64,000 nt of DNA, from IMG/VR virus record IMGVR_UViG_3300035698_013589, positions 52,033-116,032 of that record; one strand, 5' to 3'. Position 1 is the first letter of the stretch. Each line of letters starts with the position of its first letter. Of the stretch, positions 363 to 60,250 are shown one piece after another. This DNA is from a virus. Lineage: Duplodnaviria > Heunggongvirae > Uroviricota > Caudoviricetes. A program made the translations under genes and the position numbers. Below the pieces are notes generated by a model. The model saw only the letters and a list, made by a program, of their open reading frames with translations, was not told the origin of the DNA and searched no databases.

Positions 363-1259
363 ATGAACCCAATTGATAGTATGTGGACAGAGAAGTATAG
401 ACCTAAGAAGATTGATGAGATGGTTGGTAGTTTCAAAGCTAAAATCAAAAAGTATCTTGAAGAACCATCAAAGATGCAACACTTACTTCTACACTCTTCT
501 GTCCCAGGAACAGGAAAAACTACATTAGCGAAAGCTATAATCAATGAACTTGGCGCTGATAAATTAGTATTAAATTCTTCAGACGATAGAAAGATTGAAG
601 CTGTTAGAGAGAAAGTAAATTCTTTTGTTAAGACTAAATCATCAGTGGAAGGTATGAGAAGAATAGTTTTCATGGATGAAGCAGATGGATTGACAAATGC
701 AGCACAGGATGCTTTAAGAAATTTAATGGAAACATATTCTGAGAATGCTTTATTTATTTTGACATGTAATTATTTGTCTAAGATAAGTGATGCAATACAA
801 TCTCGATGTGCGAGTATTGAATTTACAACACCAGCAAAAACAGAAATCTTAACCTATCTTGAAATGATATGTAAGAATGAAAGCATGGAATACACAGAGG
901 ATGGATTGAAACGAATAATTGAAATCAACTATCCAAGTATAAGAAATTGTGTTCAGGTTTTACAATCATTAAACACAGAAGGTAAAGGTGCTACTGCTGA
1001 AACAGCAAAGAGTTCTGATGAAGAATACCAAATGTTGTGGGATAAGATTAATACCGACAAGGATTGGAAATTTGTCAAACAGCATCTGTTTGAGAATATT
1101 GTAGATATAAGACAACTTAATAAGTTCTTCTGGTTCAAAGCTGTTGAAGAAAGTTATGTTAAGATGATTCAGATAACTGCAGTAAACGAAGATAAGTTTA
1201 CAAGAGGTGGTGAAGCAATCATAGTGTTTGTATCATCATTAATTGATATGGCAAAGTAG
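363..1259 (+). CDS. RFC small-subunit-like clamp loader AAA+ ATPase
   Basis: N-terminal WTEKYRPKK box, Walker A VPGTGKTT, Walker B FMDEAD, sensor SRC motif; GAGG RBS upstream. Confidence 0.9.
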   Translation: MNPIDSMWTEKYRPKKIDEMVGSFKAKIKKYLEEPSKMQHLLLHSSVPGTGKTTLAKAIINELGADKLVLNSSDDRKIEAVREKVNSFVKTKSSVEGMRRIVFMDEADGLTNAAQDALRNLMETYSENALFILTCNYLSKISDAIQSRCASIEFTTPAKTEILTYLEMICKNESMEYTEDGLKRIIEINYPSIRNCVQVLQSLNTEGKGATAETAKSSDEEYQMLWDKINTDKDWKFVKQHLFENIVDIRQLNKFFWFKAVEESYVKMIQITAVNEDKFTRGGEAIIVFVSSLIDMAK

Positions 1260-4129: not shown

Positions 4130-4639
4130 ATGGAGATAAGAATGAAAGGGAGTAGGGTATTCTTTTTTGCTATAATAGTTCTAGCATTCATGGGATTGTA
4201 TAGTGGTAGCGAGATGTATAAACATGATGCTGAGAATGGTATCAGTCGAGACATATATAATTTAACTGAATCTAAAATGGTATGGAACTCATCTATATTC
4301 CCTATGGAAAGTTATAATGCTTCTATTCATAATGATAGTAATACTATAATGTATATTAGATTAAATAACATAATATATAAGATAGGAGATGCCATGGGGT
4401 TTTCTTTGTTTGAAGGAACTAAAATCTTTATGGAGATTGGGTATAACACTCAAGGCAAATACAATCTTGGGTTCTTTTTAGTATTAATCAAATTAGTTTT
4501 TTGGGCTGTAATTATAGGTGCAATGTTTTATCCTGCAATGTTTATTGGAATGGCTTGTTATGAGTTATTTAAATGGACAAGAAAGTTTATAAAATCAAGA
4601 AACTCTAAAGGAGAAGAGAATCAAAATGAAGACAAATAA
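4130..4639 (+). CDS. membrane protein
   Basis: N-terminal signal/TM and C-terminal TM segments. Confidence 0.4.
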   Translation: MEIRMKGSRVFFFAIIVLAFMGLYSGSEMYKHDAENGISRDIYNLTESKMVWNSSIFPMESYNASIHNDSNTIMYIRLNNIIYKIGDAMGFSLFEGTKIFMEIGYNTQGKYNLGFFLVLIKLVFWAVIIGAMFYPAMFIGMACYELFKWTRKFIKSRNSKGEENQNEDK

Positions 4640-6404
4640 AGGGTCAGTCTATATCCCACAAATGGACAAAGAAGAAGTATTAATATACGACATTGAGACA
4701 GCTGTAGTTGGACCAAAACCTGATGCAACTAAAGATAGACTTAAACTATTTGGGTTCTATTCATACAAGATAGGAAAGTTTGGTATCATTCCATTCACAG
4801 ATAAAGCATCAATTCAGAAGTTAATTGACAAACATAAGTTTATGGTTGGTTTTAACAACGAACAATATGATGACCCAATTCTGAAGAGGGAAGGAATATC
4901 CTTAGAATACAAAAGGATTGTAGACCTAAGAAAAATATTAAAACTTAGAGCAGGTGGAATGATTACTAAGAAAGGAATGCTTGGTAATGTTCTAATGAAA
5001 TATTCTCTGGATTACATTACAAGATTCTTAGATATTGTTGATGAGAACTCAGCTAAAGATGAGATTGATTATAACATATTTAAAAAAGATAGTTGGACTA
5101 AAGAAGAAGTTGCAACTATGAGAAAATATACTCAAAGAGATATTGAAGTAACAAAGAAACTATTTGAATGGGTAGAAGATTATTTTATCAGTTTCAAAGA
5201 TTTTGTTCCAAAGAAAGACGTTGATGGTAAATATTATCTAACAGATACTATTGCTAAGTTTGCTTACAAAGCCATTTGCCATGCGCTTGGTTGGGAGCCT
5301 GTTTATGATAGTGAGGGTTTCCAAAACACTAATCCTGAAGATAGAATCTCTGGTGGTTATGTAGCTTATCCTGCAGGTGAAAAGTTTGAAGGGGACATCT
5401 ATTGTTTAGATTTCAATTGTTTTCCTCCAAATACTAAAATACGAATGGCTGGAAAAGGTGGAGCTGATGGCCACTACCATGATAAAAATATTCAGAATAT
5501 TAAACCTGGCGATACAATAATAAACCAAGATGGTGTGCAGGTAGTTGGTGGTGTGCAGACACAAAATTATACTGGAGATTTGATAGTTATAGAATTAGAA
5601 AATGGTAGACAAATTAAGTGTACGCCAGACCATAAATTCCCAATAATTAGAGATGGGAAAGAGATGGTTGTTGAAGCACAAAACATAAGTGATACAGATG
5701 ATATGTTAACAACTAATTCAAAACATGGTAAACTAAATGGACATCATAAAGGAAAGATTCTAAAGATGTGTGAAGTATGTGGTTCAGAACATTCTGTGTT
5801 CCCATCACATGAACATATTAAAACTTGTTCAACAGAGTGTGCAAATGTATTAAGAGAATTAAATAGTCCAAAAACAAATCTTGGAAAGACTAAATACGAT
5901 ACACCACATCTTATGAGAATGTCTGAAGCGAGAACTGGTGTGCCTAGAACAGATGAACATAAAAATATAATTAGTAATGCTACAAAAGAAGCTATGAAAG
6001 ATGTCAACATGTCTGAAGTGAATAAACAAAGAGATATGTCATTCATGCAAACATCTGAATGGAGATTAAAAGTCGCTCAGTCAAAAATGAATAGTGTGAA
6101 GGCAGGAAAATTTAGATATAAAGATATAAATTTCAGGAGTAATTGGGAAGTTATTGTTGCAAAAAACCTAGACAAGAATAACATAGAGTGGAAATACGAA
6201 CCACAAGTGTTTAAGTTAGATGACGAAACATTCTATTTGCCAGATTTCTATATTCCTAAGTTCGATAAGTGGGTAGAAGTAAAAGGTTATATGTATGACC
6301 ATAGTAGAATAAAAATAGAAAAGTTTATGGAAACACATGAAAATTTTATATTGGTTAATGATTTGAATAGTGTAAAAGACGAGGATGTAAAATGGTTAAG
6401 ATAA
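4626..6404 (+). CDS. polB: Family B DNA polymerase, N-terminal part: exonuclease domain plus motif A half (DFN), fused to intein N-terminal region and endonuclease domain
   Basis: Exo I YDIET, Exo II VGFNNEQYDDPIL, Exo III YTQRDI, then YCLDFN / CFPPNTK (intein block A) and TPDHKF (block B); AGGAG RBS. Confidence 0.85.
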   Translation: MKTNKGSVYIPQMDKEEVLIYDIETAVVGPKPDATKDRLKLFGFYSYKIGKFGIIPFTDKASIQKLIDKHKFMVGFNNEQYDDPILKREGISLEYKRIVDLRKILKLRAGGMITKKGMLGNVLMKYSLDYITRFLDIVDENSAKDEIDYNIFKKDSWTKEEVATMRKYTQRDIEVTKKLFEWVEDYFISFKDFVPKKDVDGKYYLTDTIAKFAYKAICHALGWEPVYDSEGFQNTNPEDRISGGYVAYPAGEKFEGDIYCLDFNCFPPNTKIRMAGKGGADGHYHDKNIQNIKPGDTIINQDGVQVVGGVQTQNYTGDLIVIELENGRQIKCTPDHKFPIIRDGKEMVVEAQNISDTDDMLTTNSKHGKLNGHHKGKILKMCEVCGSEHSVFPSHEHIKTCSTECANVLRELNSPKTNLGKTKYDTPHLMRMSEARTGVPRTDEHKNIISNATKEAMKDVNMSEVNKQRDMSFMQTSEWRLKVAQSKMNSVKAGKFRYKDINFRSNWEVIVAKNLDKNNIEWKYEPQVFKLDDETFYLPDFYIPKFDKWVEVKGYMYDHSRIKIEKFMETHENFILVNDLNSVKDEDVKWLR

Positions 6405-6505
6405 ATAAAATAACACGGGAACCATATAATGGATTAGTGTATGATTTATCTTTAAAGAATGTAGCATCCCCATATTTTTATGCTAATAGAATACTGACAC
6501 ACAAT
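5418..6505 (+). mobile_element. intein in polB motif A (Hint blocks A,B,F,G) carrying a non-LAGLIDADG endonuclease region (CxxC...HxH, two NUMOD3-like repeats, PD-(D/E)xK-like LPDFYIP...WVEVKG)
   Basis: insertion exactly between DFN and SLYP of polymerase motif A; N-terminal Cys, C-terminal HN followed by Ser; length 1088 nt is not a multiple of 3 (frame change near 6392-6404). Confidence 0.75.
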
Positions 6506-7771
6506 AGTCTTTATCCACACATAATGATTCAATGTAATCTTTATTCAAGAAATAAGAAGGTGGCAGATGGATGGCATGGAAGTGACATGTGGAAAGTTGA
6601 AGGGTTCTATAATGATGAAAAACTAAGCCCTGTTTGTAAACTTATGAGAGCATGGTATCATCTAAGATTAAAATATAAAAGAAAATTTGTTACTGGTGAA
6701 GGTAAAGTTGTCAAGATGCTTGATGAAAAGAAAGGAACATCAGCTATGGATTATGTTGGAAAAGAATATCATAGAGTTGTTCAAAATTCAGAAGGGCAGA
6801 TTAAACTTGAGCTTGCAATGATGACTGAAGAGTCAGCAAAGGAATATGTTGAACTTGCAAAAGAAGGTGTGGACAGAAGAGAATACACAATCAAGATTAT
6901 CATTAATACAATTTATGGTTTATTGAATAATGCATACTACAAACTTGTATATGATTTAATGGCTGGTGGAGATTGCACAAGAATAGGAAGACAATGGACT
7001 AAGTATGCTCGTAAGATATTCAAAGAAGCTGGTTATAAAATTGTATATACCGATACAGATTCATGGTATGTTATTGACCATTTGAATGATAAAAAGAAAC
7101 TGCTTGAAGTTAATAAGCAAGTGATTGATAAGATAAAAGCCACTGTTCCGTTTCCGCAATTAACCTTTGATGCAGGTATAGATGATGAGATTAAATACAT
7201 GTTCTTCTTTAAAGGAACAAAGAATGAGGAAAAAGAAACTGATAGTGAGATGGACTCAGAGGATTTCTTGAACAAACCATTAGGACTGATGAAGAAAAAC
7301 TATATCTATGTCACTAAAGAAAATAAGGTTAAGATAAAGAACTTAGGAATCAAGAAGAAAAATATAAGTGCTTTATCAAAAGAAATCTTTTGGAATCATT
7401 TAGTTCCTGTTATTAAATCAGAAGGGCGAGTTAAGTTTAGTGCTGTTGAGATTGAAAACCTTATGCGTAGATTGTTGAAAGATAACATTGAACTATCATA
7501 CATGAGAAAAGAAGTGTCTCCTATATCAGCATATTCTAAATCAATCAATGGCATCCAAGCACAAATATCTAAAGCATATGGACCAGGAATACATTTCCTT
7601 ATACCAAACAAAAGAAACATTGGTGTTGGGAAGAAAGTTAAATATTGTAATGTTGATGAGTTCCAGAAATATAAGATGGAGATTTCTGATATAGATTTCT
7701 CAAACTTCTGGAAAGAACTTAACTATTTTGTCAAAGCAAGGAAACAACCAAACTTATTTGATTGGAATTAA
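6392..7771 (+). CDS. polB: Family B DNA polymerase, C-terminal part: 38-aa intein C-terminal segment (blocks F,G ...ILTHN) followed by SLYPHIM (motif A), KIIINTIYG (motif B), YTDTDS (motif C)
   Basis: starts 13 nt before stop of previous ORF in another frame; GAGGA RBS-like sequence upstream of ATG. Confidence 0.85.
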   Translation: MVKINKITREPYNGLVYDLSLKNVASPYFYANRILTHNSLYPHIMIQCNLYSRNKKVADGWHGSDMWKVEGFYNDEKLSPVCKLMRAWYHLRLKYKRKFVTGEGKVVKMLDEKKGTSAMDYVGKEYHRVVQNSEGQIKLELAMMTEESAKEYVELAKEGVDRREYTIKIIINTIYGLLNNAYYKLVYDLMAGGDCTRIGRQWTKYARKIFKEAGYKIVYTDTDSWYVIDHLNDKKKLLEVNKQVIDKIKATVPFPQLTFDAGIDDEIKYMFFFKGTKNEEKETDSEMDSEDFLNKPLGLMKKNYIYVTKENKVKIKNLGIKKKNISALSKEIFWNHLVPVIKSEGRVKFSAVEIENLMRRLLKDNIELSYMRKEVSPISAYSKSINGIQAQISKAYGPGIHFLIPNKRNIGVGKKVKYCNVDEFQKYKMEISDIDFSNFWKELNYFVKARKQPNLFDWN

Positions 7772-39560: not shown

Positions 39561-39799
39561 CATTTTTCACAAAAAAATATAAAAAAAGTAACATGATAAA
39601 AGTATTTTTTGCAAAACTTAAAGCAAGAGATGAACAAGAAGCAAAATATATATTGCGTGAAAAACATCCTTTTTGTAAAATATTAACATACAGATTTGAA
39701 AAAGATTTTAAATTTGTGCCTAAAGAAAAAAGAGATTATACAAAGAGAATTATTGAAGTTGTGTTTGTGAAAAATATAAAAGATATATGGAACGATTAA
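39557..39799 (+). CDS. hypothetical basic protein
   Basis: ORF in track. Confidence 0.35.
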   Translation: MTFFTKKYKKSNMIKVFFAKLKARDEQEAKYILREKHPFCKILTYRFEKDFKFVPKEKRDYTKRIIEVVFVKNIKDIWND

Positions 39800-41139
39800 A
39801 AATGAAATTACCTGAACAAATAACAAACATCATGGCTCATATAATTAGTCATGGATACAAGGCGTATGTAGTTGGTGGTGCAATAAGAGATTTCAAGATG
39901 AATTTTGAACCACACGATTATGATATTTTCACAAATGCCAGAGGAGAAGAATTGCTGCAACTTTTTCCAGATGGTCATGTTATTGGAAATGAAGAACGAC
40001 AGAACAAGATTTTAACCGTAATGGTTGATGATGTAGAGGTATCTACTTTCAGGCTTAACGGCGACAGAACTGAAATTGGTAACACGCTTGAAGACCATCA
40101 AAAGACTTGTGATTTCACAATGAACTCTATTGCTTGTGATATTAATGGAACTATTGATTTAGAGAATCCTTACAATGAACAAGGAGTTAAAGACATTGCA
40201 GGTAACATGCTAAGGTTTGTTGGTGAAGCTAAAGATAGGATTGAAGAAGACCAATTGAGGATATTGCGAGGACTTAGATTCTTGTTAAAATATAACATGA
40301 TGTGTGATAAAAACACAATGAACTTATTAGAACATCATGAAGTAGATGTTCCTAAAGAACGAATCAGAGAAGAACTTTTGAAGATATTTTCATTAAATCT
40401 TTATAGTGGTTTTTTAAGATTCATATTAAGATTTATGCCTAAATGTATGGCTCATTCACAGAATTTTTCATCAGGCGGAAAATGGCATGATGAAATGCCT
40501 TATGCACATTTTGAAAGTTCTTTTTTAGAGGTATCTAAGATAACATCAAACCCATTATTAAGAATGGCAGTGTTATTACATGATTCAGGAAAAGGTATCA
40601 CAAGAACTGAAGATGACGGCGAAGTTCATTTTTATGAGCATCAAAAAGTTGGTGCTGATGAAGTTAGAGCATGGATGAATGAACATAAATTTAGTAATGA
40701 TGATATTAATTATGTAACTACATTTATCTATAATCATATGCATGGATATGCAGAGAAAGAACCAAGTAAGAAATCATACATCAAATTGTTTGTTGCTCTT
40801 GATGGTGCAGGTATTTCGATAGAAGAATATGTAATGCATCTTTATGGAGATAATCAAGGTAATCATGCTAAACCAAGAATCAAGTTTGGTGATTTTGTTA
40901 AAGATAGTTTATACATCAAAAAGTATTATGAACTTAAATTCACAAATGAACCTTTCAAAATACATGACATGGAAATCTCTGGAAAAGATTTGATTGAAAA
41001 ACATGGAATGAAAGCAGGTAAACAACTTGGTGGCGTATTGAAAGAGATTTTTAATTTGATACTTGAAGGCGATTTGAAGAACGAAAAAGCTGAACTTAAT
41101 AATTATGTGAAGACAAAGGTGATTCCAAATGGAAAGTGA
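39787..41139 (+). CDS. cca: class II tRNA nucleotidyltransferase (CCA-adding enzyme) with C-terminal HD domain
   Basis: GGAIRD head motif, DYDIFT, TFRLNGDR, ERIREE; HD motif LLHDSGKG. Confidence 0.8.
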   Translation: MERLKMKLPEQITNIMAHIISHGYKAYVVGGAIRDFKMNFEPHDYDIFTNARGEELLQLFPDGHVIGNEERQNKILTVMVDDVEVSTFRLNGDRTEIGNTLEDHQKTCDFTMNSIACDINGTIDLENPYNEQGVKDIAGNMLRFVGEAKDRIEEDQLRILRGLRFLLKYNMMCDKNTMNLLEHHEVDVPKERIREELLKIFSLNLYSGFLRFILRFMPKCMAHSQNFSSGGKWHDEMPYAHFESSFLEVSKITSNPLLRMAVLLHDSGKGITRTEDDGEVHFYEHQKVGADEVRAWMNEHKFSNDDINYVTTFIYNHMHGYAEKEPSKKSYIKLFVALDGAGISIEEYVMHLYGDNQGNHAKPRIKFGDFVKDSLYIKKYYELKFTNEPFKIHDMEISGKDLIEKHGMKAGKQLGGVLKEIFNLILEGDLKNEKAELNNYVKTKVIPNGK

Positions 41140-41515
41140 AATAGAATACAAACAATTTGTTGTAGTGCCTAAACATCCTAAGATGAGTACTGGTAAGATT
41201 GCAAGTCAAGTGGCTCATGCTACTTTTATGGCTCTATCTAAGAATGAAGATGGTATAATCAAAGGATGGAAAAAATCAGGAATGTGTGTTATTGTGCTTG
41301 AATGCCCAACACAAACAGAACTTATGGGTATTGCTAAATATTGTGAACAATGGGATATTCCACATCATATTTATATTGATGAAGGTATGACTGAAATACC
41401 TATGGGAACAGCAACAGCATTTGCAACAGGTGTAGTGCCTAAACATCAACATTGGATGTTTGGTCAATTAAAATTATTCACTGATAAAAAAATCAAAAAA
41501 AGAACATTTTTTTAA
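41129..41515 (+). CDS. pth2: peptidyl-tRNA hydrolase Pth2 (archaeo-eukaryotic type), copy 1
   Basis: FVVVPKHPKMSTGKIASQVAHA ... CVIVLE ... IDEGMTEIPMGTATAFA matches PTH2 fold signature. Confidence 0.8.
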   Translation: MESEIEYKQFVVVPKHPKMSTGKIASQVAHATFMALSKNEDGIIKGWKKSGMCVIVLECPTQTELMGIAKYCEQWDIPHHIYIDEGMTEIPMGTATAFATGVVPKHQHWMFGQLKLFTDKKIKKRTFF

Positions 41516-41521
41516 TTCAAC

Positions 41522-41863
41522 ATGGCACTATCATTAAAAGAAGCAAAAAAACTTGGAAATCAGTTTGCTGAAGAGTTGCAGGAAGAGTTTAAAGCTGAAC
41601 TTTCATGGTGGTTTGTCGGCTCAATAAAGGAAGGCAAATATAATGCAGGAACTTCCGATATTGATATGGTCATAATTCCAAAACATGAAGGGATGTTTGG
41701 TTATGAAGCAATAAAACGTGTTCTTGCAAAGATGGAAGAATACAAAAAATACGGAATGGTTTTTAAGAAAGGTAGAGACATTTCACTGATTGATGTAGTA
41801 ATATTTTTAAACTTAGAAACCGTAAATACTATTAGAAAAATGAACAAGGAAGTGAAAAAATGA
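41522..41863 (+). CDS. minimal nucleotidyltransferase (Pol beta superfamily MNT domain)
   Basis: GSIKEGKYNAGTSDIDMVI = GSx9-13 DxD signature. Confidence 0.55.
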   Translation: MALSLKEAKKLGNQFAEELQEEFKAELSWWFVGSIKEGKYNAGTSDIDMVIIPKHEGMFGYEAIKRVLAKMEEYKKYGMVFKKGRDISLIDVVIFLNLETVNTIRKMNKEVKK

Positions 41864-43795: not shown

Positions 43796-44659
43796 ATGGA
43801 AAAATCAAGAAGGTTTGTTATAGGCGACATTCACGGCAGATTTAATCCTTTGAAAAAAGTATTAAAATTAGCCAAGTTCGATAAGGACAAGGATTTATTA
43901 ATTGTTCTTGGAGATATAGTGGATGGTGGTTTTAATACTGACAAAGTGTTAGAGCAGTTGTTGAAAATTAAAAATGTTGTGTTTATAACAGGCAACCATG
44001 ACCAATGGTTTATTGATTACACCTTTAAGGGTAGAACACCATCAGAATGGATTAATCAGGGTGGTGCTAATACTCTCAATAGTTATGGTGGAAAAGTAAT
44101 TCCAGGGAAACGGTTTCGAGATAAACCCATTTTAATTGATGTTAATGGTGTGAAAATACCAAAGAAACATATAGAATTTTTTGCGAATAGATTGTATTAT
44201 TTTGAGTTTGAGGGAATGTTGTTTGTGCATGGTGGGTATGACCCATCAAAACCGATAGCAGAACAAACACATGACATTTTGTTATGGGACAGGGATTTGA
44301 TAGCATTTGCAGGTCATTCAAAGATTCCAAAGTATGAAAAAGTTTTCATAGGTCACACAACAACACAACACATTGAAAGAGAATGGGTTAATTATAAATG
44401 TCGTGATTGTGAAAAAGAATGGTCATTAGAAATTAACACATTTGAAGATTTGCGTAATAGCAAACAAGATATTTCTTGTGAAAAATGTAGTTCAACAAAC
44501 ATATTTCAGGCGTTAGGATGTGTGAATCCAATAAAGATTGGTAATTTATTTTGTTTAGATACAGGGGCAGGATGGAATGGAAAATTATCCATCATGGATA
44601 TTGATTCAGAAGAATTTTATCAGTCGGAATTACAAGAACCAGCGATAACAAAAGAGTGA
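43796..44659 (+). CDS. PPP-family metallophosphatase (calcineurin-like) with C-terminal zinc ribbon
   Basis: GDIHG, GDIVDGG, GNHD motifs; CRDC...CEKC. Confidence 0.8.
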   Translation: MEKSRRFVIGDIHGRFNPLKKVLKLAKFDKDKDLLIVLGDIVDGGFNTDKVLEQLLKIKNVVFITGNHDQWFIDYTFKGRTPSEWINQGGANTLNSYGGKVIPGKRFRDKPILIDVNGVKIPKKHIEFFANRLYYFEFEGMLFVHGGYDPSKPIAEQTHDILLWDRDLIAFAGHSKIPKYEKVFIGHTTTQHIEREWVNYKCRDCEKEWSLEINTFEDLRNSKQDISCEKCSSTNIFQALGCVNPIKIGNLFCLDTGAGWNGKLSIMDIDSEEFYQSELQEPAITKE

Positions 44660-48403: not shown

Positions 48404-48652
48404 ATGAAAACACCGATATGGATGAGATTTATACTTCATATAGAGAGCGACAACATGAGCAGATTATCATTCAAGATGGATGTGACATATTCACATTTAT
48501 CAAAAACAGCAAAAGAAATGGAAGCTAAAGGATGGTTAACAAGAATTAAACGTGGACGAGTTAATCAGTTTGCGTTAACACAAAAAGGTATTGAAATGCG
48601 ACAAGCTTGTCAAATAATAGCACAAGAAATTGGTAACGCATATCTAAAATGA
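48404..48652 (+). CDS. winged-helix transcription regulator (MarR/TrmB-like)
   Basis: SHLSKTAKEMEAKGWLTRIKRGRVNQFALTQKG. Confidence 0.45.
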   Translation: MKTPIWMRFILHIESDNMSRLSFKMDVTYSHLSKTAKEMEAKGWLTRIKRGRVNQFALTQKGIEMRQACQIIAQEIGNAYLK

Positions 48653-49005
48653 CATACACACATAAGTTAGTTGTTGTCGTTGATAACAACGTAAAGATGC
48701 CAAAGGGTAAACTTGCAAGAGAAGTAGCTGGAGCTGTGACACATGTAATTATGTATCATTGGAGCTTTTTTAAGTTTGCATCAATGCTTGCTTGGTATAA
48801 GAATGGCATGAAAACTGTCGTGCTTAAAACAGATGACATGGGTAAATTTATGGAAGATTTAAAGGTGTTTAGGATAAAACATTTTCCTATGGTAGATGCA
48901 GGTGACACAGTATTTGATGGTGTTGCAACAATGACTTGTATTGGGTTTCCTATCTGTAAAGAAGAGAAAACACCAGTAATATTACAGGAGTTAAAATTAT
49001 TATAA
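48649..49005 (+). CDS. pth2: peptidyl-tRNA hydrolase Pth2, copy 2
   Basis: KLVVVVDNNVKMPKGKLAREVAGA ... KTVVLK ... DAGDTVF...TMTCIGFP. Confidence 0.7.
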   Translation: MTYTHKLVVVVDNNVKMPKGKLAREVAGAVTHVIMYHWSFFKFASMLAWYKNGMKTVVLKTDDMGKFMEDLKVFRIKHFPMVDAGDTVFDGVATMTCIGFPICKEEKTPVILQELKLL

Positions 49006-54988: not shown

Positions 54989-55345
54989 ATGAAGACAGTA
55001 TTAATCGTGGAAGACACTGAGGCATTAGCTTTTTTGTACGAAGAAGTAATAGAAGATTTAGGGTATAATGTCATACTTGCAGAAAATGGTGTTGAAGGGT
55101 TTAAAAAATACAACGTGAATAAACCTGATGCGGTTATCACAGATAGTAAAATGCCTATCATGGCAGGACAGGAATTGGTTGACATCATAAGAGAAATTGA
55201 TGGGAAAACACCAATCTTGTTTCATAGTATGGATGACTTACCAACTGTGTATGGAATACCAAATTTATACACAGCAAAGAAAGACCCATGCCAAGATTAT
55301 ATAGTTGAATTTTTAGAAAGAACAATAGGTAAATGTGATGTTTAA
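54989..55345 (+). CDS. standalone CheY-like response-regulator receiver domain
   Basis: VLIVEDTE, DAVITDSKMPIMAGQEL, KTPILFHS (Thr and Lys positions). Confidence 0.7.
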   Translation: MKTVLIVEDTEALAFLYEEVIEDLGYNVILAENGVEGFKKYNVNKPDAVITDSKMPIMAGQELVDIIREIDGKTPILFHSMDDLPTVYGIPNLYTAKKDPCQDYIVEFLERTIGKCDV

Positions 55346-57764: not shown

Positions 57765-58034
57765 ATGAACATCTTAGAAGAAGCTAACAAAATCACGTCA
57801 GATGATAGGCAAAAGGCTTACGGCAAGCCTAAAGAGAACTTTAATCACATTGCTAAGATTGCATCGTCAATACTTGGTAAGGAAATCACTGCAAAAGAGA
57901 TTGTAATGATTATGTTTGCTACAAAATTGAGCAGGGAAATGCATTGTTCAAAACATGATAATCATGTTGATTTAGCAGGATACTCTTGGGTTTTGAATCA
58001 AGTTGTTGAAGAAGAAATACCAAAAACAGAGTAA
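57765..58034 (+). CDS. hypothetical protein
   Basis: ORF in track. Confidence 0.4.
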   Translation: MNILEEANKITSDDRQKAYGKPKENFNHIAKIASSILGKEITAKEIVMIMFATKLSREMHCSKHDNHVDLAGYSWVLNQVVEEEIPKTE

Positions 58035-58095
58035 AAACGAAACATTTAAATATAAGTTACATTATACTAACTATTATACATGGAGGTGTATACAA
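58030..58095 (+). promoter_or_regulatory. BRE/TATA promoter copy plus GGAGGTG RBS upstream of Ro60 gene
   Basis: aaacgaaaCATTTAAATATAagttacattatactaactatta; TATA-like 58045-58054. Confidence 0.55.
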
Positions 58096-59691
58096 ATGAG
58101 TAGGTTCAATAAAACAAGCGTAAGCGACAAGATTACAACAAACAAAGAAGGTTCAAAAGCATTCAAGCTAACTTCTGATTATGAATTATATACATTAGTT
58201 GCAACATCAGCACTAAATAACAAATTCTATGAAAAAACAGATGAAAGAATTGAAAGATTAAGAACTCTGATTAAGAAATGCGACCCTATGTTCGTGGCTA
58301 AATTAGCTGTGTATGCAAGGGAATCAATGTATTTGAGAAGTATTCCATTAGTATTAACTGTGGAACTTAACAAACATCTTAATGAAATCAAAGCTAAGAA
58401 AAGCATGATTACAACATTATCAACAAGAGTAATCCAAAGAGCTGATGAAATTACTGAAATCCTAGCATATTACTCACTTGCTAACAAAGCAAATGAGAAA
58501 GCTGGTGAAGCTGGTCAAGTTAAGAAATTAGCTAAATTATCAAAGGCACTTCAAAAAGGTGTAGCTAATGCTTTCCACAAATTTGATGAATATCAATTTG
58601 CAAAGTATAATAGGAAAACTGACATCAAATTAAAAGATGCATTATTCCTTACACACCCAAAACCTGAAAGTTCTACAGAAACAGAACTCTTTAAGAAAAT
58701 TGCAAGTGATACTTTGGAAACTCCTAAGACTTGGGAAGTTGAAATGTCTACTGCAAAAGGTAAAGACAAAACACCTAAACAAGTTTGGGAAGATATGATT
58801 GATTCAGGTAAACTTGGTTACATGGCTCTAATGAGAAATTTGAGAAACATTCTGCAAGCAGATGTATCCCAAAAACATGTATTCAAAGTAGCTGATATGT
58901 TAGAAAACAAAGAACTTGTTGTGAAAGCTAAACAATTACCATTCAGATTTTTGGCAGCATATAACGAACTGAAAAAGGCTTCAGGCGACTATCCTAGTGG
59001 TAGATACTCCTATTCCGATGAAACAGAAGTGACATTAAAAAATAAAGCAAATGTCACAATCATCTTGGAAGCCCTTGACAACGCAATCAAAGCATCTGTT
59101 GAAAACTTAAAAGGATTCAGCAGAGACATGAATGTAATGATTGCTTGTGATGTTTCAGGTAGTATGATGTCAAAAATCAGTCCTCAAAGTTCAATCGAAA
59201 TGTATGACATTGGATTAACTTTAGGTATGATTTTACAACATAAATGCAAGTATGTAGTTACTGGTATCTTCGGTGATACTTTCAAAACTAAAGCATTCCC
59301 AAGAGATAGTATCCTTGAAAATGTAATGAAGTTTAAGAAAATCGAAGGTGAAGTAGGTTACAGCACTAACGGATACAAAGTACTTGATTACCTAATCCAA
59401 GCAGGCGATAAAGTAGACAAAGTAATGATGTTTACTGATTGTCAAATGTGGAACAGCTCTGGATATAATAGAGATAATCTTATTCCTGCAAGATGGAACA
59501 GATACAAAGAAATTAATCCAGAAGCTAAACTTTACTTGTTCGACATGCAAGGTTACGGAGATACACCAATTGACATGATTCAAAAGGATGTATTCTTGAT
59601 TGCAGGTTGGTCTGACAAAGTGTTTGACATACTTGAAAGTCTTGAAAATGGTGAAGATGCGATTAAAGTAATTAATGACATCAAATTATAA
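58096..59691 (+). CDS. rsr: Ro60 orthologue (TROVE domain plus vWA domain; Rsr-like)
   Basis: TROVE features (RSIPLVLTVEL, LPFRFLAAYNEL like Ro60 PFHILIA...Y), vWA MIDAS MIACDVSGSM and MMFTDCQMW; ~530 aa typical size; true start ATG 58096 after GGAGGTG. Confidence 0.85.
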   Translation: MSRFNKTSVSDKITTNKEGSKAFKLTSDYELYTLVATSALNNKFYEKTDERIERLRTLIKKCDPMFVAKLAVYARESMYLRSIPLVLTVELNKHLNEIKAKKSMITTLSTRVIQRADEITEILAYYSLANKANEKAGEAGQVKKLAKLSKALQKGVANAFHKFDEYQFAKYNRKTDIKLKDALFLTHPKPESSTETELFKKIASDTLETPKTWEVEMSTAKGKDKTPKQVWEDMIDSGKLGYMALMRNLRNILQADVSQKHVFKVADMLENKELVVKAKQLPFRFLAAYNELKKASGDYPSGRYSYSDETEVTLKNKANVTIILEALDNAIKASVENLKGFSRDMNVMIACDVSGSMMSKISPQSSIEMYDIGLTLGMILQHKCKYVVTGIFGDTFKTKAFPRDSILENVMKFKKIEGEVGYSTNGYKVLDYLIQAGDKVDKVMMFTDCQMWNSSGYNRDNLIPARWNRYKEINPEAKLYLFDMQGYGDTPIDMIQKDVFLIAGWSDKVFDILESLENGEDAIKVINDIKL

Positions 59692-59788
59692 TTTTTTTTT
59701 ATTTATATTCATAATCGAAAGAAATAAAAAGGAGAACAACTCCTGTTCATGTTAATGAAGACTGAACCTCTTCATTATTTGTTTGTTT

Positions 59789-60250
59789 AATGGCGTAGAA
59801 TACGGATACTTCAAATCTGGAAAAAAACCGTATTTGTTCTTTCCTTAAATAACCTACTCATGGTGGCGTAGGTTGGTAATACTTCGAAACTGAAAATATC
59901 GTTGGGAGCAATCCCAAAACCTTACCAATCGTTTGTTCCCCTTCATTATCCTAACCAGCTATGGTGGATTATGGGAGCCAAGGATGTGCACACTAACTTG
60001 GTAAACTCAAATAGTAAACAATGGTGGCGTAGAGCACGATTTCATCGAAACTGAAACCAAATTTCAACTAAAAACTTCGTGTTTGATTGTTCCCCACTCA
60101 TATTCAAAAGGTGGCGTAGTAAAGAGTTACTTCGACATGTAATCGAGAGGCCACGGGTTCAAATCCCGTTGCATCCTTCGGGATGTATAGCTCAGTCTGG
60201 TAGAGCGCTAAAATCTCTCTTTACGATTGTTCCCCTTTCATATTCAATCA
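59789..60250 (+). ncRNA. array of five tandem structured RNA-like units (candidate Y RNAs) with conserved junction motif ...GATTGTTCCCCWYTCATATTC...(A)GGTGGCGTAG
   Basis: units start at ~59789, 59862, 59963, 60023, 60110; each has a different but internally complementary helix (ATACGG/CCGTAT, TTGGTAA/TTACCAA, GCACGA/TCGTG, TAAAGAG/CTCTTTA). Confidence 0.5.
60110..60235 (+). ncRNA. YrlA-like Y RNA candidate with circularly permuted tRNA-like module (T-arm 60153-60169, acceptor hairpin closed by TTCG 60170-60187, D-arm 60190-60206)
   Basis: ACGGG-TTCAAAT-CCCGT, TGCATCC-ttcg-GGATGTA, TA-GCTC-AGTCTGGT-AGAGC all readable; enclosed by helix TAAAGAG/CTCTTTA. Confidence 0.55.

What the first reader, a model, noticed from the sequence alone, without database searches (positions are those of the whole stretch)
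58096..60250. Virus-encoded Ro60 (TROVE-vWA) gene followed directly by an array of Y-RNA-like structured repeats
Ro60 is the protein partner of Y RNAs. Y RNAs are normally encoded next to rsr in bacteria. Here a Ro60 orthologue with its own BRE/TATA-like promoter and a strong RBS is followed within 60 nt by about 460 nt of non-coding sequence. That sequence is organised as five tandem structured units. A Ro60 / Y RNA ribonucleoprotein module in what otherwise looks like an archaeal-type virus would be unusual. A five-copy tandem Y-RNA-like array is not a known arrangement. It could act in RNA quality control or decay during infection, or in hijacking host RNA surveillance.
Basis: partly seen in the sequence, partly recalled or inferred. 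Interest (0 to 1): 0.85.

Follow-up and report, generated by a model that had tools for sequence, protein, structure and literature searches.

The report
Viral Ro60 gene with four Y RNAs
A large, probably archaeal virus carries a gene for the RNA-binding ring protein Ro60, followed by four small RNAs that have the conserved Ro60-docking stem; this protein–RNA partnership is already known from bacteria and phages, so it is a solid new example rather than a new kind of system.

Summary
Window 58096-59691(+) encodes a true Ro60 orthologue: TROVE 1.6e-31, Ro60-type vWA 1e-8, and a DVSGS MIDAS motif. It has a BRE/TATA-like box and a GGAGGTG ribosome-binding site.

Downstream lie four Y-RNA units, not five: 59785-59850, 59858-59945, 60019-60099 and 60106-60239. 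A 73-nt spacer between units 2 and 3 matches nothing.

Each unit has the same docking module:
- a terminal stem and a bulged U;
- GGCGUAG, one base off the published bacterial Ro60 motif GNCGAAN0-1G;
- a 7-bp variable stem;
- a WUACUUCG loop start;
- a 3' strand CGN-YUR-WW-N'C.

A covariance model built only from other loci finds exactly these four units in 64 kb (E 2e-12 to 6e-9). Across 68 non-redundant relatives, 94.6% of pair cells are paired, against 61.6% in shuffles, and 14 of 18 pairs show compensatory changes. The motif sits only on the Ro60 strand (277 vs 0).

Unit 4 is a YrlA-type tRNA mimic. Units 1-3 are mini Y RNAs.

Phage Ro60 with Y RNAs is already published, and I found arrays of up to 7 units in Bacteroidota chromosomes. 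What may be new is the likely archaeal host, suggested by 11 BRE/TATA boxes, an archaeal-type RFC and two PTH2 genes. The function is inferred, not shown.

The parts
58038..58052 (+). BRE/TATA-like promoter box CGAAACATTTAAATA upstream of Ro60
   Evidence: The pattern CGAAANNTTTAWATA occurs 11 times in the window, all on the + strand, against 0.85 expected. It sits about 45 nt before the ATG.
58082..58088 (+). Shine-Dalgarno-like GGAGGTG, 7 nt before the start codon
   Evidence: Read directly from the sequence. SD-like motifs of 5 nt or more precede 41 of 125 ORFs, against about 9 expected.
58096..59691 (+). Ro60/Rsr orthologue, 531 aa (TROVE ring plus vWA domain with MIDAS motif DVSGS)
   Evidence: Pfam TROVE 1.6e-31 and vWA_Ro60 1e-8, both above the curated cut-offs. 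PHROG 850, 1.8e-52. PDB: Thermus phage phiLo Ro60 (9L5Y/9KOP) 2.9e-24 and Xenopus Ro60 2.5e-5. Homologues align over residues 1-531.
59692..59700 (+). T9 run directly after the stop codon, followed by TTTATAT at 59702-59708
   Evidence: Read directly from the sequence. This could be an oligo-T terminator plus a weak TATA box for the RNA array. That is inference only: no copy of the strong promoter box lies before the array.
59785..59850 (+). Y RNA unit 1, a mini unit with an atypical 3' strand
   Evidence: Model R1, built without window sequences: 44.7 bits, E 5.5e-10, full length. It has GGCGUAG, the 7-bp stem AAUACGG/CCGUAUU and AUACUUCA. Its 3' strand is UGU-UCU-UU-CC, so the UAG/YUR pairs are mostly broken.
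59858..59945 (+). Y RNA unit 2, a mini unit with an internal hairpin UUGGGAGCAAUCCCAA
   Evidence: R1: 46.5 bits, E 1.8e-10. The MFE fold shows the terminal stem, the variable stem and the inner hairpin.
59946..60018 (+).
   Evidence: No R1 hit, even with filters off. It starts AUGGUGGAUUAUG, which resembles a decayed AUGGUGGCGUAG. It folds into two hairpins at z = -1.1. Its identity is unresolved.
60019..60099 (+). Y RNA unit 3, a mini unit
   Evidence: R1: 40.9 bits, E 6.4e-9. It has GGCGUAG, the stem AGCACGA/UCGUGUU, UUUCAUCG and 3' UGA-UUG-UU-CC.
60106..60239 (+). Y RNA unit 4, YrlA type: Ro60-docking stem plus a tRNA-like domain
   Evidence: R1: 53.5 bits, E 1.9e-12. Rfam YrlA gives a local match at 60146-60209 of 35.7 bits, E 4.5e-6, below the gathering score of 69.

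The domain contains:
- a T arm at 60153-60169, with loop UUCAAAU;
- a 7-bp acceptor-like hairpin at 60170-60187, closed by UUCG;
- a D arm at 60190-60206.

The ARAGORN and Rfam 'tRNA-Thr' call at 60109-60179 is marginal (30 bits against a cut-off of 29) and has mismatches in the acceptor stem.
39787..41139 (+). Class II CCA-adding enzyme. It is distal, and its link to the Y RNAs is conjectural.
   Evidence: Pfam PolyA_pol + HD + tRNA_NucTran2_2. NCBIfam CCA tRNA nucleotidyltransferase, 1.3e-45.
41129..41515 (+). PTH2-type peptidyl-tRNA hydrolase. A second copy lies at 48649-49005.
   Evidence: Pfam PTH2 matches 2 window ORFs, best 3.3e-22. NCBIfam arch_pth2 also matches 2. I assigned the coordinates from the KMxxGKxxAQ-type N-termini; that is my reading, not a per-ORF scan.
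43796..44659 (+). Calcineurin-type metallophosphoesterase. Its homologue sits directly after the Y array in relative L127.
   Evidence: Pfam Metallophos 2.3e-17. It is 43.5% identical to L127 4975-5706.

Best explanation
This is a virus-borne Ro60 / Y RNA ribonucleoprotein module.

What is shown:
- The gene encodes a ring-shaped Ro60 (Rsr) orthologue.
- The four RNAs downstream each carry the same docking module. It runs: terminal stem, bulged U, G-N-C-G-U-A-G, 7-bp variable stem, WUACUUCG, then on the return strand CGN, YUR, WW, N'C.
- This module is conserved with compensatory changes across many Ro60 loci.

What follows by analogy with published systems (Xenopus Ro60-Y RNA, D. radiodurans and Salmonella Rsr, and Thermus phage phiLo Ro60):
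- The invariant 5' strand GNCGUAG is the surface that Ro60 reads.
- The units are probably made as one precursor, because they lie only 6-7 nt apart, then cut and trimmed back to the protected stems.
- Each RNA presents a different second module. Three present small loops or hairpins; one presents a tRNA-shaped domain with a closed 7-bp acceptor-like stem.
- Those second modules would tether or gate Ro60 toward host partners. In bacteria the partner is PNPase. In an archaeal host the analogous candidates are the exosome or tRNA-handling enzymes.

The most likely purpose during infection is to redirect structured-RNA decay, or to support RNA or tRNA repair against host RNA-targeting defence. 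The same window encodes a CCA-adding enzyme, two PTH2 genes and a metallophosphoesterase, which fits that theme. This last step is inference.
For: Protein identity.

The RNAs:
- The motif GNCGTAG-N7-WTWCWTC occurs 4 times, only in the array, against 0.16 expected.
- Model R1, built from 68 units of other loci, finds exactly four full-length hits in the window at E 2e-12 to 6e-9, and the next hit scores 13.5 bits.

Structure:
- 94.6% of cells are paired against 61.6 +/- 0.9% in shuffles.
- The covariation score is 0.896, against 0.224 in shuffles and at most 0.16 when partners are slid.
- 14 of 18 pairs change on both sides.
- Pairs that played no part in selecting the units also hold. The terminal stem is 91% paired against 49 +/- 1.5% with shuffled partners. 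The N:N' pair is 96% paired, using all four Watson-Crick types. The bulge is U in 121 of 127 units.

Link to Ro60:
- 277 anchors lie on the Ro60 strand and 0 on the opposite strand across 140 loci.
- Among 100 viral loci chosen without regard to Ro60, 11 of the 12 loci with a model hit encode Ro60. The twelfth is only 1.4 kb long. Only 2 of the 88 loci without a hit encode Ro60.

Other points:
- The motif is one base off the published Rsr-recognition motif GNCGAAN0-1G (PMC4201824).
- Unit 4 matches the tRNA-like core of Rfam YrlA.
- Precedent: phage phiLo Ro60 binds two phage-encoded Y-like RNAs and host PNPase (PMC12135203).
Against: - There are no expression, processing or binding data. RNA ends are inferred from the model alignment only.
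- Single units do not fold better than shuffled sequence (z = -0.6 to -1.6).
- Unit 4 reaches only half of the Rfam YrlA gathering score, and the Rfam model does not cover the Ro60 site at all.
- The stem-2 and UAG/YUR pairs were partly used to pick the units, so their pairing percentages are inflated.
- Unit 1 has a poor 3' strand.
- A T9 run separates Ro60 from the array, and no strong promoter box precedes the array, so how the RNAs are transcribed is open.
- The host partner is unknown. If the host is archaeal, the PNPase analogy cannot hold as such, because most archaea lack PNPase.
- The tRNA-care genes lie 14-20 kb away, so their link to the module is only circumstantial.
Confidence: 0.82

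Rival explanations
1. The units are real Y-like RNAs, but their main job does not depend on the viral Ro60. For example, the tRNA-shaped unit 4 could act as a decoy or sponge for host tRNA-targeting nucleases or tRNA-modifying enzymes, and the mini units could be processing by-products or decoys for a host Ro60.
For: - The T, D and acceptor-like arms of unit 4 are near-consensus tRNA.
- The window holds a CCA-adding enzyme and two PTH2 genes.
- Published YrlA RNAs are substrates of tRNA enzymes, and M. smegmatis YrlA, which also has a 7-bp acceptor stem, is cut by RNase P and receives CCA (PMC4201824).
Against: - The invariant part shared by all four units is the Ro60-type docking motif, not the tRNA-like part. 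70 of 127 related units have no T-loop at all.
- The module co-occurs almost exclusively with a Ro60 gene on the same strand.
Confidence: 0.1
2. The array is a set of tRNA genes or decayed tRNA pseudogenes. ARAGORN calls tRNA-Thr at 60109-60179.
For: - ARAGORN calls a tRNA-Thr, and Rfam tRNA scores 30 bits against a cut-off of 29.
- The 5' motif GGUGGCGUAG resembles an acceptor 5' strand followed by U8-A9-G10. A collection scan with this motif returned mainly loci that show no Y-module hit and no Ro60 gene; from the motif's form I presume these are ordinary tRNA genes, but I did not check them.
Against: - In the tRNA alignment, the acceptor stem has non-standard pairs and the D arm is defective.
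- The good D arm lies 3' of the T arm, which is the permuted YrlA order.
- Units 1-3 have no T or D arm, yet they share the same conserved ends.
- The 3' strand CGN-YUR-WW-N'C covaries with the 5' motif across 127 units.
Confidence: 0.03
3. The repeats act at the DNA level or as cis-acting mRNA elements, for example protein-binding iterons, terminators or attenuators for the neighbouring genes. On this reading they are not stable small RNAs.
For: - The repeats are tandem and lie in an intergenic region.
- Hairpins resembling terminators are picked up in the region.
Against: - The conservation is strand-specific: 277 anchors against 0.
- Helices are kept through G-U pairs and compensatory changes while the sequence varies. 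That is an RNA signature.
- The units occur upstream or downstream of Ro60 in different loci but always on its strand.
Confidence: 0.02
4. The module is as described, but the virus is a bacteriophage, for example of a low-GC bacterium, and not an archaeal virus. It would then be one more phage Ro60/Y RNA locus.
For: - The closest cellular Ro60 proteins are nearly all from Bacteroidota, at 47-53% identity.
- The CCA enzyme is the bacterial class II type.
- Shine-Dalgarno use is strong.
- T4-like phages also encode RFC-like clamp loaders.
Against: - There are 11 copies of a BRE/TATA-like box and fewer sigma-70-like sites than in shuffles.
- The RFC small subunit is much closer to archaeal RFC (2e-43; NCBIfam 5e-58) than to T4 gp44 (4e-29) or DnaX (4e-24).
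- There are two PTH2 genes of the archaeal/eukaryotic type.
- The best cultured-virus hit for Ro60 is the haloarchaeal virus HGTV-1.
- Relative L127 has tRNA genes with 32- and 45-nt anticodon-loop introns.
- Relative L258 is binned with a Thermoplasmatales genome.
- Bacteroidota hosts are unlikely, given the heavy SD use.
Confidence: 0.3

Closest known systems
Bacterial and phage Rsr (Ro60) with YrlA/YrlB Y RNAs (Chen et al. 2014, RNA 20:1715, PMC4201824; Rfam RF02553)
   Same: - A Ro60 orthologue has small RNAs encoded next to it on the same strand.
- The 5' and 3' ends pair into a stem carrying a conserved 5'-strand motif.
- One RNA has a permuted tRNA-like domain: T arm, closed acceptor-like stem, D arm.
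- A smaller second RNA lacks the full tRNA mimic.
- 22 phages were already listed as carrying YrlA.
   Different: - The motif here is GNCGUAG, against the published GNCGAAN0-1G.
- Here the 3' strand is also conserved (CGN-YUR-WW-N'C).
- There are four RNAs, where one or two were characterised.
- Unit 4 scores 35.7 bits against the Rfam gathering score of 69.
- No rtcB/rtcA genes lie next to it.
- The host is probably archaeal.
Thermus phage phiLo Ro60 with Yrl1/Yrl2 (NAR 2025, PMC12135203; PDB 9KOP, 9L5Y)
   Same: - A phage-encoded Ro60 has phage-encoded Y-like RNAs beside the gene.
- It is the closest solved structure to the window protein (E 2.9e-24).
- It was shown to bind its RNAs and to form a ternary complex with host PNPase.
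   Different: - phiLo has two RNAs, located upstream of the gene, with a CGAA motif. The window has four, located downstream, with CGUA.
- Only about half of the window protein aligns by sequence (residues 14-288).
- The phiLo host is a bacterium that has PNPase.
Ro60/TROVE genes of archaeal viruses and elements: Halogranum tailed virus 1 gp129, Asgard 'Nidhogg' viruses, Borgs
   Same: - HGTV-1 gives the best cultured-virus match to the window Ro60: 32.5% identity over 97% of the protein.
- TROVE + vWA proteins are reported in Nidhogg viruses (bioRxiv 2021.07.29.454249), and a TROVE protein in Borgs (PMC11208441).
   Different: - The passages of those papers that mention Ro60 or TROVE, which are the only parts I read, identify no partner Y RNA.
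- Here four partner RNAs are identified.
- Near its Ro60, HGTV-1 has only an annotated 'tRNA-Asp + intron' that carries the UUACUUCG motif. My model does not hit it.
Metazoan Y RNAs (hY1-hY5, Xenopus Y3) bound by Ro60
   Same: - The design is modular: a bulged terminal helix read mainly on its 5' strand (GGUCCGA), plus a variable effector loop.
- There are two to four paralogous Y RNAs per genome.
   Different: - There is no detectable sequence homology (no Rfam Y_RNA hit).
- The bulge and internal-loop geometry differ.
- Metazoan Y RNAs are separate RNA polymerase III genes, not an array.

Membership tests
Ro60 / Rsr protein (TROVE + vWA) | TROVE (HEAT-repeat ring) domain above the Pfam curated score | tested here: met
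   PF05731 scores 110.4 bits against a cut-off of 23, E 1.6e-31.
Ro60 / Rsr protein (TROVE + vWA) | C-terminal Ro60-type von Willebrand A domain with a MIDAS motif (DxSxS) | tested here: met
   PF25045 scores 35.7 bits against a cut-off of 27.7. DVSGS is present in the translation.
Ro60 / Rsr protein (TROVE + vWA) | Closed ring fold that binds Y RNA on its outer surface | not tested
   No structure prediction was run. The sequence matches solved Ro60 structures 9L5Y/9KOP and 1YVP.
Y RNA (Ro60 partner RNA, general) | Encoded next to the Ro60 gene on the same strand (the rule in bacteria and phages) | tested here: met
   The four units lie 94-548 nt after the stop codon on the + strand. In relatives, 277 anchors lie on the Ro60 strand and 0 on the other.
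Y RNA (Ro60 partner RNA, general) | The 5' and 3' ends pair into a stem holding a conserved Ro60-recognition motif on the 5' strand (GNCGAAN0-1G in bacteria, GGUCCGA in vertebrates) | tested here: met
   The stem is supported by covariation. The motif is GGCGUAG, which is GNCG-U-A-G: one position differs from the published consensus. The N position covaries with its 3' partner.
Y RNA (Ro60 partner RNA, general) | Physically bound and stabilised by Ro60 | not testable with these tools
   This needs immunoprecipitation or EMSA.
YrlA (Rfam RF02553), unit 4 | Permuted tRNA-like core: T arm, closed acceptor-like stem, D arm | tested here: met
   Local alignment to model positions 24-84 gives 35.7 bits, E 4.5e-6, with all three hairpins formed. 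The MFE fold shows the same three hairpins.
YrlA (Rfam RF02553), unit 4 | Score at or above the Rfam gathering threshold (69 bits) | tested here: not met
   The score is 35.7 bits. Close relatives also score only 35-41 bits. The Rfam model starts after the Ro60 motif and appears tuned to other lineages.
YrlA (Rfam RF02553), units 1-3 | tRNA-like T and D arms | tested here: not met
   There is no Rfam YrlA or tRNA hit, and the loops are only 22-44 nt. These units resemble the smaller YrlB/Yrn2-type partners, not YrlA.
tRNA (the ARAGORN call at 60109-60179) | 7-bp acceptor stem formed by the two ends, plus a canonical D arm | tested here: not met
   cmscan marks non-standard pairs in the acceptor stem, and the D arm aligns with deletions. 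The score is 30 bits against a cut-off of 29.
Archaeal virus (host domain) | Archaeal-type promoters (BRE + TATA) instead of sigma-70 promoters | tested here: inconclusive
   CGAAACATTTAWATA occurs 11 times on the + strand against 0.85 expected. Sigma-70-like sites are fewer than in shuffles near the locus. The resemblance to the archaeal BRE/TATA consensus rests on my own knowledge, and no transcription start sites are known.
Archaeal virus (host domain) | Direct host link (CRISPR spacer, provirus, isolate) | not testable with these tools
   The evidence is indirect only: an archaeal-like RFC and PTH2, intron-bearing tRNA genes in relative L127, and relative L258 binned with a Thermoplasmatales MAG.

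The most novel reading that the evidence does not exclude
This would be the first Ro60 ribonucleoprotein of an archaeal virus for which the partner RNAs are identified. The host probably lacks PNPase. The four-member Y RNA set (three minimal docking RNAs and one tRNA mimic) would therefore have to couple the viral Ro60 to different effectors, such as the archaeal exosome or tRNA end-processing enzymes, including the virus's own CCA-adding enzyme. Relatives of this module have gone a step further and fused the docking stem into a complete tRNA frame.
Probability: 0.35. Interest if true: 0.62.

Novelty: new member of a known kind. Interest (0 to 1): 0.45.

Why it matters
Ro60/Y RNA particles are a conserved but poorly understood RNA-surveillance device. 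They are also a human autoantigen with bacterial mimics.

This locus adds three things:
- It gives a clean, comparatively validated consensus for the docking module, U-GNCGUAG ... CGN-YUR-WW-N'C with a WUACUUCG junction. The Rfam YrlA model does not cover this module, so it can be used to annotate partner RNAs in viruses and in Bacteroidota.
- It shows that loci with several Y RNAs, mixing tRNA mimics and minimal RNAs, are common.
- If the host is archaeal, it offers a system for asking which enzyme Ro60 is tethered to when PNPase is absent.

It does not change the current picture of what Ro60 and Y RNAs are.

Tried and rejected
- **Rfam at gathering thresholds.** It found only a marginal tRNA in the whole window. 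The YrlA model matches only the tRNA-like core and starts after the Ro60 motif, so it cannot test the docking stem.
- **Folding energy as a test.** Single units are not significantly more stable than shuffles, so I did not rely on it.
- **Exact-protein look-up.** The collection holds no identical Ro60.
- **Exact 5' and 3' motifs in the first six viral relatives.** No matches, because the N position varies.
- **Collection scan with GTGGCGTAG...GGGTTCRA.** Most of the loci it returned show no Y-module hit and no Ro60 gene and are presumably ordinary tRNA genes. I reused them as a control set.
- **A fifth unit in the spacer, and a relic 'unit 0' at 59712-59775** (AUCGAAAG ... CUGAACC-UCUUCAUUAU). 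The model does not support either.
- **A pseudoknot between loop UCG and the CGN bulge.** No covariation: A29 pairs with C41 in 8 cases.
- **An alternative pairing of core C-G with the CGN bulge.** It cannot be told apart from the internal-loop model, because those columns barely vary.
- **Host assignment through PolB and helicase similarity to cultured phages.** PolB has no hit, and the helicase gives only weak hits to Lak phages.
- **Synteny with relatives.** Apart from Ro60 and its RNAs, only one nearby gene is shared with the closest relative.
Full report
**1. The protein**

The ORF list gives a 562-aa frame starting at a TTG at 58003. The ATG at 58096 is the better start. It is preceded by GGAGGTG at 58082-58088, and homologues from other contigs align from residue 1 of that version.

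The 531-aa product matches Pfam TROVE (110.4 bits, E 1.6e-31) and the Ro60-specific vWA domain (35.7 bits, E 1e-8). Both are above the curated cut-offs. It also matches PHROG 850, 'RNA-binding protein' (E 1.8e-52). The vWA part carries a DxSxS MIDAS motif, DVSGS.

The closest solved structures are the Ro60 of Thermus phage phiLo (9L5Y/9KOP, E 2.9e-24) and Xenopus Ro60 (1YVP). The protein half of the finding is confirmed.

**2. The RNA array**

The intergenic stretch after the stop codon contains four copies of GGCGTAG - 7 nt - WTWCWTC. These are the only matches in 64 kb on either strand, against 0.16 expected from shuffles. Three of them also share the 3' motif GATTGTTCCCC or a close variant.

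Read together with relatives, each unit has this layout:
- a terminal stem of 2-6 bp;
- a bulged U;
- G-N-C-G-U-A-G;
- a 7-bp stem of free sequence;
- a loop that begins WUACUUCG;
- a variable domain;
- the return strand of the 7-bp stem;
- C-G-N;
- Y-U-R, pairing with U-A-G;
- two unpaired W;
- N'-C, pairing with G-N;
- the return strand of the terminal stem.

**3. Independent test**

I collected Ro60 loci from viral contigs, metagenomes and genomes. That gave 140 loci including the window.

A 5'-only anchor (GNCGYRG + 6-10 nt + NT[ACT]C[AT]TC) occurs 277 times on the Ro60 strand and never on the opposite strand. 104 of the 140 loci have at least one copy, and some have up to seven.

From 127 non-redundant units:
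- The terminal stem was not used to pick the units. It is 91% paired, against 49 +/- 1.5% when partners are shuffled.
- The bulge is U in 121 units.
- The N:N' pair is C-G 65, G-C 20, U-A 17, A-U 13, U-G 6, and unpaired in 5.

On 68 units that exclude the window, the counting tool gives:
- 94.6% of cells paired, against 61.6 +/- 0.9% in shuffles;
- a covariation score of 0.896, against 0.224 in shuffles and at most 0.16 for slid partners;
- 14 of 18 pairs with changes on both sides.

One caveat applies. The 7-bp stem and the UAG/YUR pairs were partly used as selection criteria, so their percentages are inflated. The terminal stem and N:N' are the unbiased part.

A covariance model built from those 68 units finds exactly four full-length matches in the whole window:

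| Coordinates | Bits | E-value |
|---|---|---|
| 60106-60239 | 53.5 | 1.9e-12 |
| 59858-59945 | 46.5 | 1.8e-10 |
| 59785-59850 | 44.7 | 5.5e-10 |
| 60019-60099 | 40.9 | 6.4e-9 |

The next hit scores 13.5 bits. With filters off, nothing appears in the 73-nt spacer 59946-60018 or in 59692-59784. The array therefore has four units, not five. The spacer begins AUGGUGGAUUAUG and may be a decayed unit, but that is a guess.

Folding energies alone are unconvincing. Single units fold at z = -0.6 to -1.6, and the whole region at z = -2.2.

**4. Link to Ro60**

I ran the same model on 100 viral loci fetched for an unrelated reason (882 kb). It hits 12 loci. Eleven of them encode a Ro60 homologue inside the fetched stretch, and the twelfth is only 1.4 kb long. 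Of the 88 loci without a hit, only two encode Ro60. The RNA module and the protein travel together.

**5. What the units are**

The invariant 5' strand GNCGUAG differs at one position from the motif GNCGAAN0-1G. [quoted passage not shown] As in that work, the 5' strand is invariant, while the 3' strand changes only in ways that keep pairing (U:G/A, G:U/C).

Unit 4 contains:
- a T arm with loop UUCAAAU;
- a 7-bp acceptor-like hairpin closed by UUCG;
- a D arm with loop AGUCUGGUA.

This is the permuted order typical of YrlA. Rfam YrlA aligns to it locally (35.7 bits, E 4.5e-6), but that is below the gathering score of 69. Relatives score similarly. The Rfam model starts only after the Ro60 motif.

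The ARAGORN 'tRNA-Thr' call at 60109-60179 is a side effect of this mimicry. In that alignment the acceptor stem and D arm are defective.

Units 1-3 have short effector loops of 22-44 nt with no T or D arm. They correspond to the smaller second Y RNAs (YrlB, Yrn2, Yrl). Among relatives, 57 of 127 units have a T-loop and 70 do not.

**6. How it probably works**

Shown: a Ro60 orthologue, and four RNAs with a conserved, covarying docking helix that is tightly linked to Ro60 genes.

Inferred from published systems:
- Ro60 reads the GNCGUAG strand on its outer surface.
- The second module of each RNA tethers or gates the ring. In D. radiodurans, Salmonella and phage phiLo, the partner is PNPase (PMC4201824; bioRxiv 10.1101/312249; PMC12135203).

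The units lie 6-7 nt apart, except at the spacer. This suggests one precursor that is cut and trimmed, as in M. smegmatis, where YrlA and YrlB come from a single precursor.

No copy of the strong promoter box lies before the array, and a T9 run follows the Ro60 stop codon. Read-through transcription or a weak TATA box at 59702-59708 would be needed. This point is open.

The 7-bp acceptor-like stem of unit 4 matches the one feature that made M. smegmatis YrlA a substrate for RNase P and CCA addition. The window also encodes:
- a CCA-adding enzyme (39787-41139);
- two PTH2 peptidyl-tRNA hydrolases;
- a small nucleotidyltransferase;
- a metallophosphoesterase, whose homologue sits directly after the Y array in relative L127.

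A role in RNA or tRNA repair, or in counter-defence, is therefore plausible but only circumstantial.

**7. The virus**

All genes run on one strand, GC is 32%, and 85% of the window is coding. Most ORFs match no family: only 23 Pfam families are hit by the 106 ORFs scanned. PolB has no match in 50,697 phage records.

Evidence for an archaeal host:
- There are 11 copies of CGAAACATTTAWATA, all on the coding strand. From my own knowledge, this resembles the archaeal BRE + TATA consensus.
- The RFC small subunit is closest to Pyrococcus and Archaeoglobus RFC (2e-43; NCBIfam 5e-58), ahead of T4 gp44 (4e-29) and DnaX (4e-24).
- There are two PTH2 genes.
- The best cultured-virus Ro60 match is the haloarchaeal virus HGTV-1.
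- Relative L127 shares the four-unit array after Ro60 and has 57% Ro60 identity. It carries 15 tRNA genes, two of them with 32- and 45-nt introns in the anticodon loop.
- Relative L258 has four units directly upstream of its Ro60 and is binned with a Thermoplasmatales genome.

Evidence against:
- The nearest cellular Ro60 proteins are almost all from Bacteroidota.
- The CCA enzyme is the bacterial class II type.

I put an archaeal host at roughly 0.65-0.7.

**8. Novelty**

Phage Ro60 genes with adjacent Y RNAs were catalogued in 2014, when 22 phages were listed (PMC4201824). They were characterised biochemically and structurally in 2025 (PMC12135203). Jumbo-phage TROVE proteins with a tRNA-like partner have been noted (PMC7824862). 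TROVE or Ro60 genes have been reported in HGTV-1 (GenBank annotation), Asgard viruses and Borgs.

Multi-unit arrays are common. I found up to seven units per locus in Bacteroidota chromosomes and four in other viruses.

What seems not to have been described:
- partner RNAs for a probable archaeal virus Ro60;
- the full two-strand consensus of this docking module.

I did not find either in the papers searched, but the library is incomplete.

**Verdict**

This is a real, well-supported new member of a known kind. It is of moderate interest.

Noticed in passing
L003 6272-6410; L175 5037-5173; L164 3136-3269; L149 1447-1570; L150 1053-1178; L128 1884-2016 and 2772-2903; L260 (HGTV-1) 971-1102: Relatives carry tRNA/Y-RNA chimeras. 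Each has a complete tRNA frame: a 7-bp open acceptor stem, a D arm and a T arm, and three of them encode CCA. The anticodon arm is replaced by a hairpin-closed, circularly permuted Ro60-docking module (stem'-CGN-YURWWN'C-hairpin-U-GNCGUAG-stem-AUACUUCG). ARAGORN reads these as tRNAs with 49-62-nt 'introns'. The annotated 'tRNA-Asp + intron' of the archaeal virus HGTV-1, 2.9 kb from its Ro60 gene, carries the UUACUUCG junction too. None is present in the window. I found no description of this form in the papers searched.
   Followed up: partly
window, 11 sites: 14159, 15439, 16723, 17237, 18506, 18581, 23930, 38675, 43351, 52850, 58038 (+): A promoter-like box CGAAACATTTAWATA recurs only on the coding strand (0.85 expected). 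It resembles an archaeal BRE + TATA element. Between 12.9 and 18.7 kb it is part of a leader of about 35 nt (…TTTATATAGTAGTTAGTATATCCTAATTA…) that repeats in front of a series of small genes.
   Followed up: partly
window 39787-41139, 41129-41515, 41522-41863, 43796-44659, 48649-49005: There is a cluster of tRNA-care genes: a class II CCA-adding enzyme with an HD domain, an overlapping PTH2 peptidyl-tRNA hydrolase, a small nucleotidyltransferase, a calcineurin-type metallophosphoesterase and a second PTH2. The phosphoesterase is 43.5% identical to the gene directly after the Y RNA array in relative L127.
   Followed up: partly
window 363-1259 and 4626-7771: The replication genes are of the archaeo-eukaryotic type. 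The RFC small subunit has its best PDB hits in Pyrococcus and Archaeoglobus RFC. The family B DNA polymerase is encoded in two ORFs; the first holds an intein splicing domain and a homing-endonuclease-like segment. This PolB has no tblastn match in 50,697 phage records.
   Followed up: partly
L127 1691-1810 and 1815-1921: L127 is the closest relative of the Ro60/Y array. It carries 15 tRNA genes upstream of Ro60, two of which have short introns (45 and 32 nt) at the anticodon-loop position. That intron type points to archaeal (or eukaryotic) splicing, not to bacterial group I introns.
   Followed up: no
L243, L244/L162 (Bacteroidota chromosomal contigs of 0.78-1.2 Mb), about 4600-6200: Cellular Bacteroidota Ro60 loci carry up to seven anchors of the same Y RNA docking motif downstream of the gene. 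L162/L244 also has a tRNA gene array further downstream. Large Y RNA arrays are therefore not specific to viruses.
   Followed up: partly
window 59946-60018: A 73-nt spacer lies between units 2 and 3. It begins AUGGUGGAUUAUG, close to the AUGGUGGCGUAG that opens the real units, and folds into two hairpins. It has no 3' docking strand and no model hit. It could be a decayed unit or an unrelated small RNA.
   Followed up: partly
window 54989-55345: A stand-alone CheY-like response-regulator receiver domain (Pfam Response_reg, 2.6e-15) is encoded in the virus, with no output domain. I assigned the coordinates from the translated sequence.
   Followed up: no
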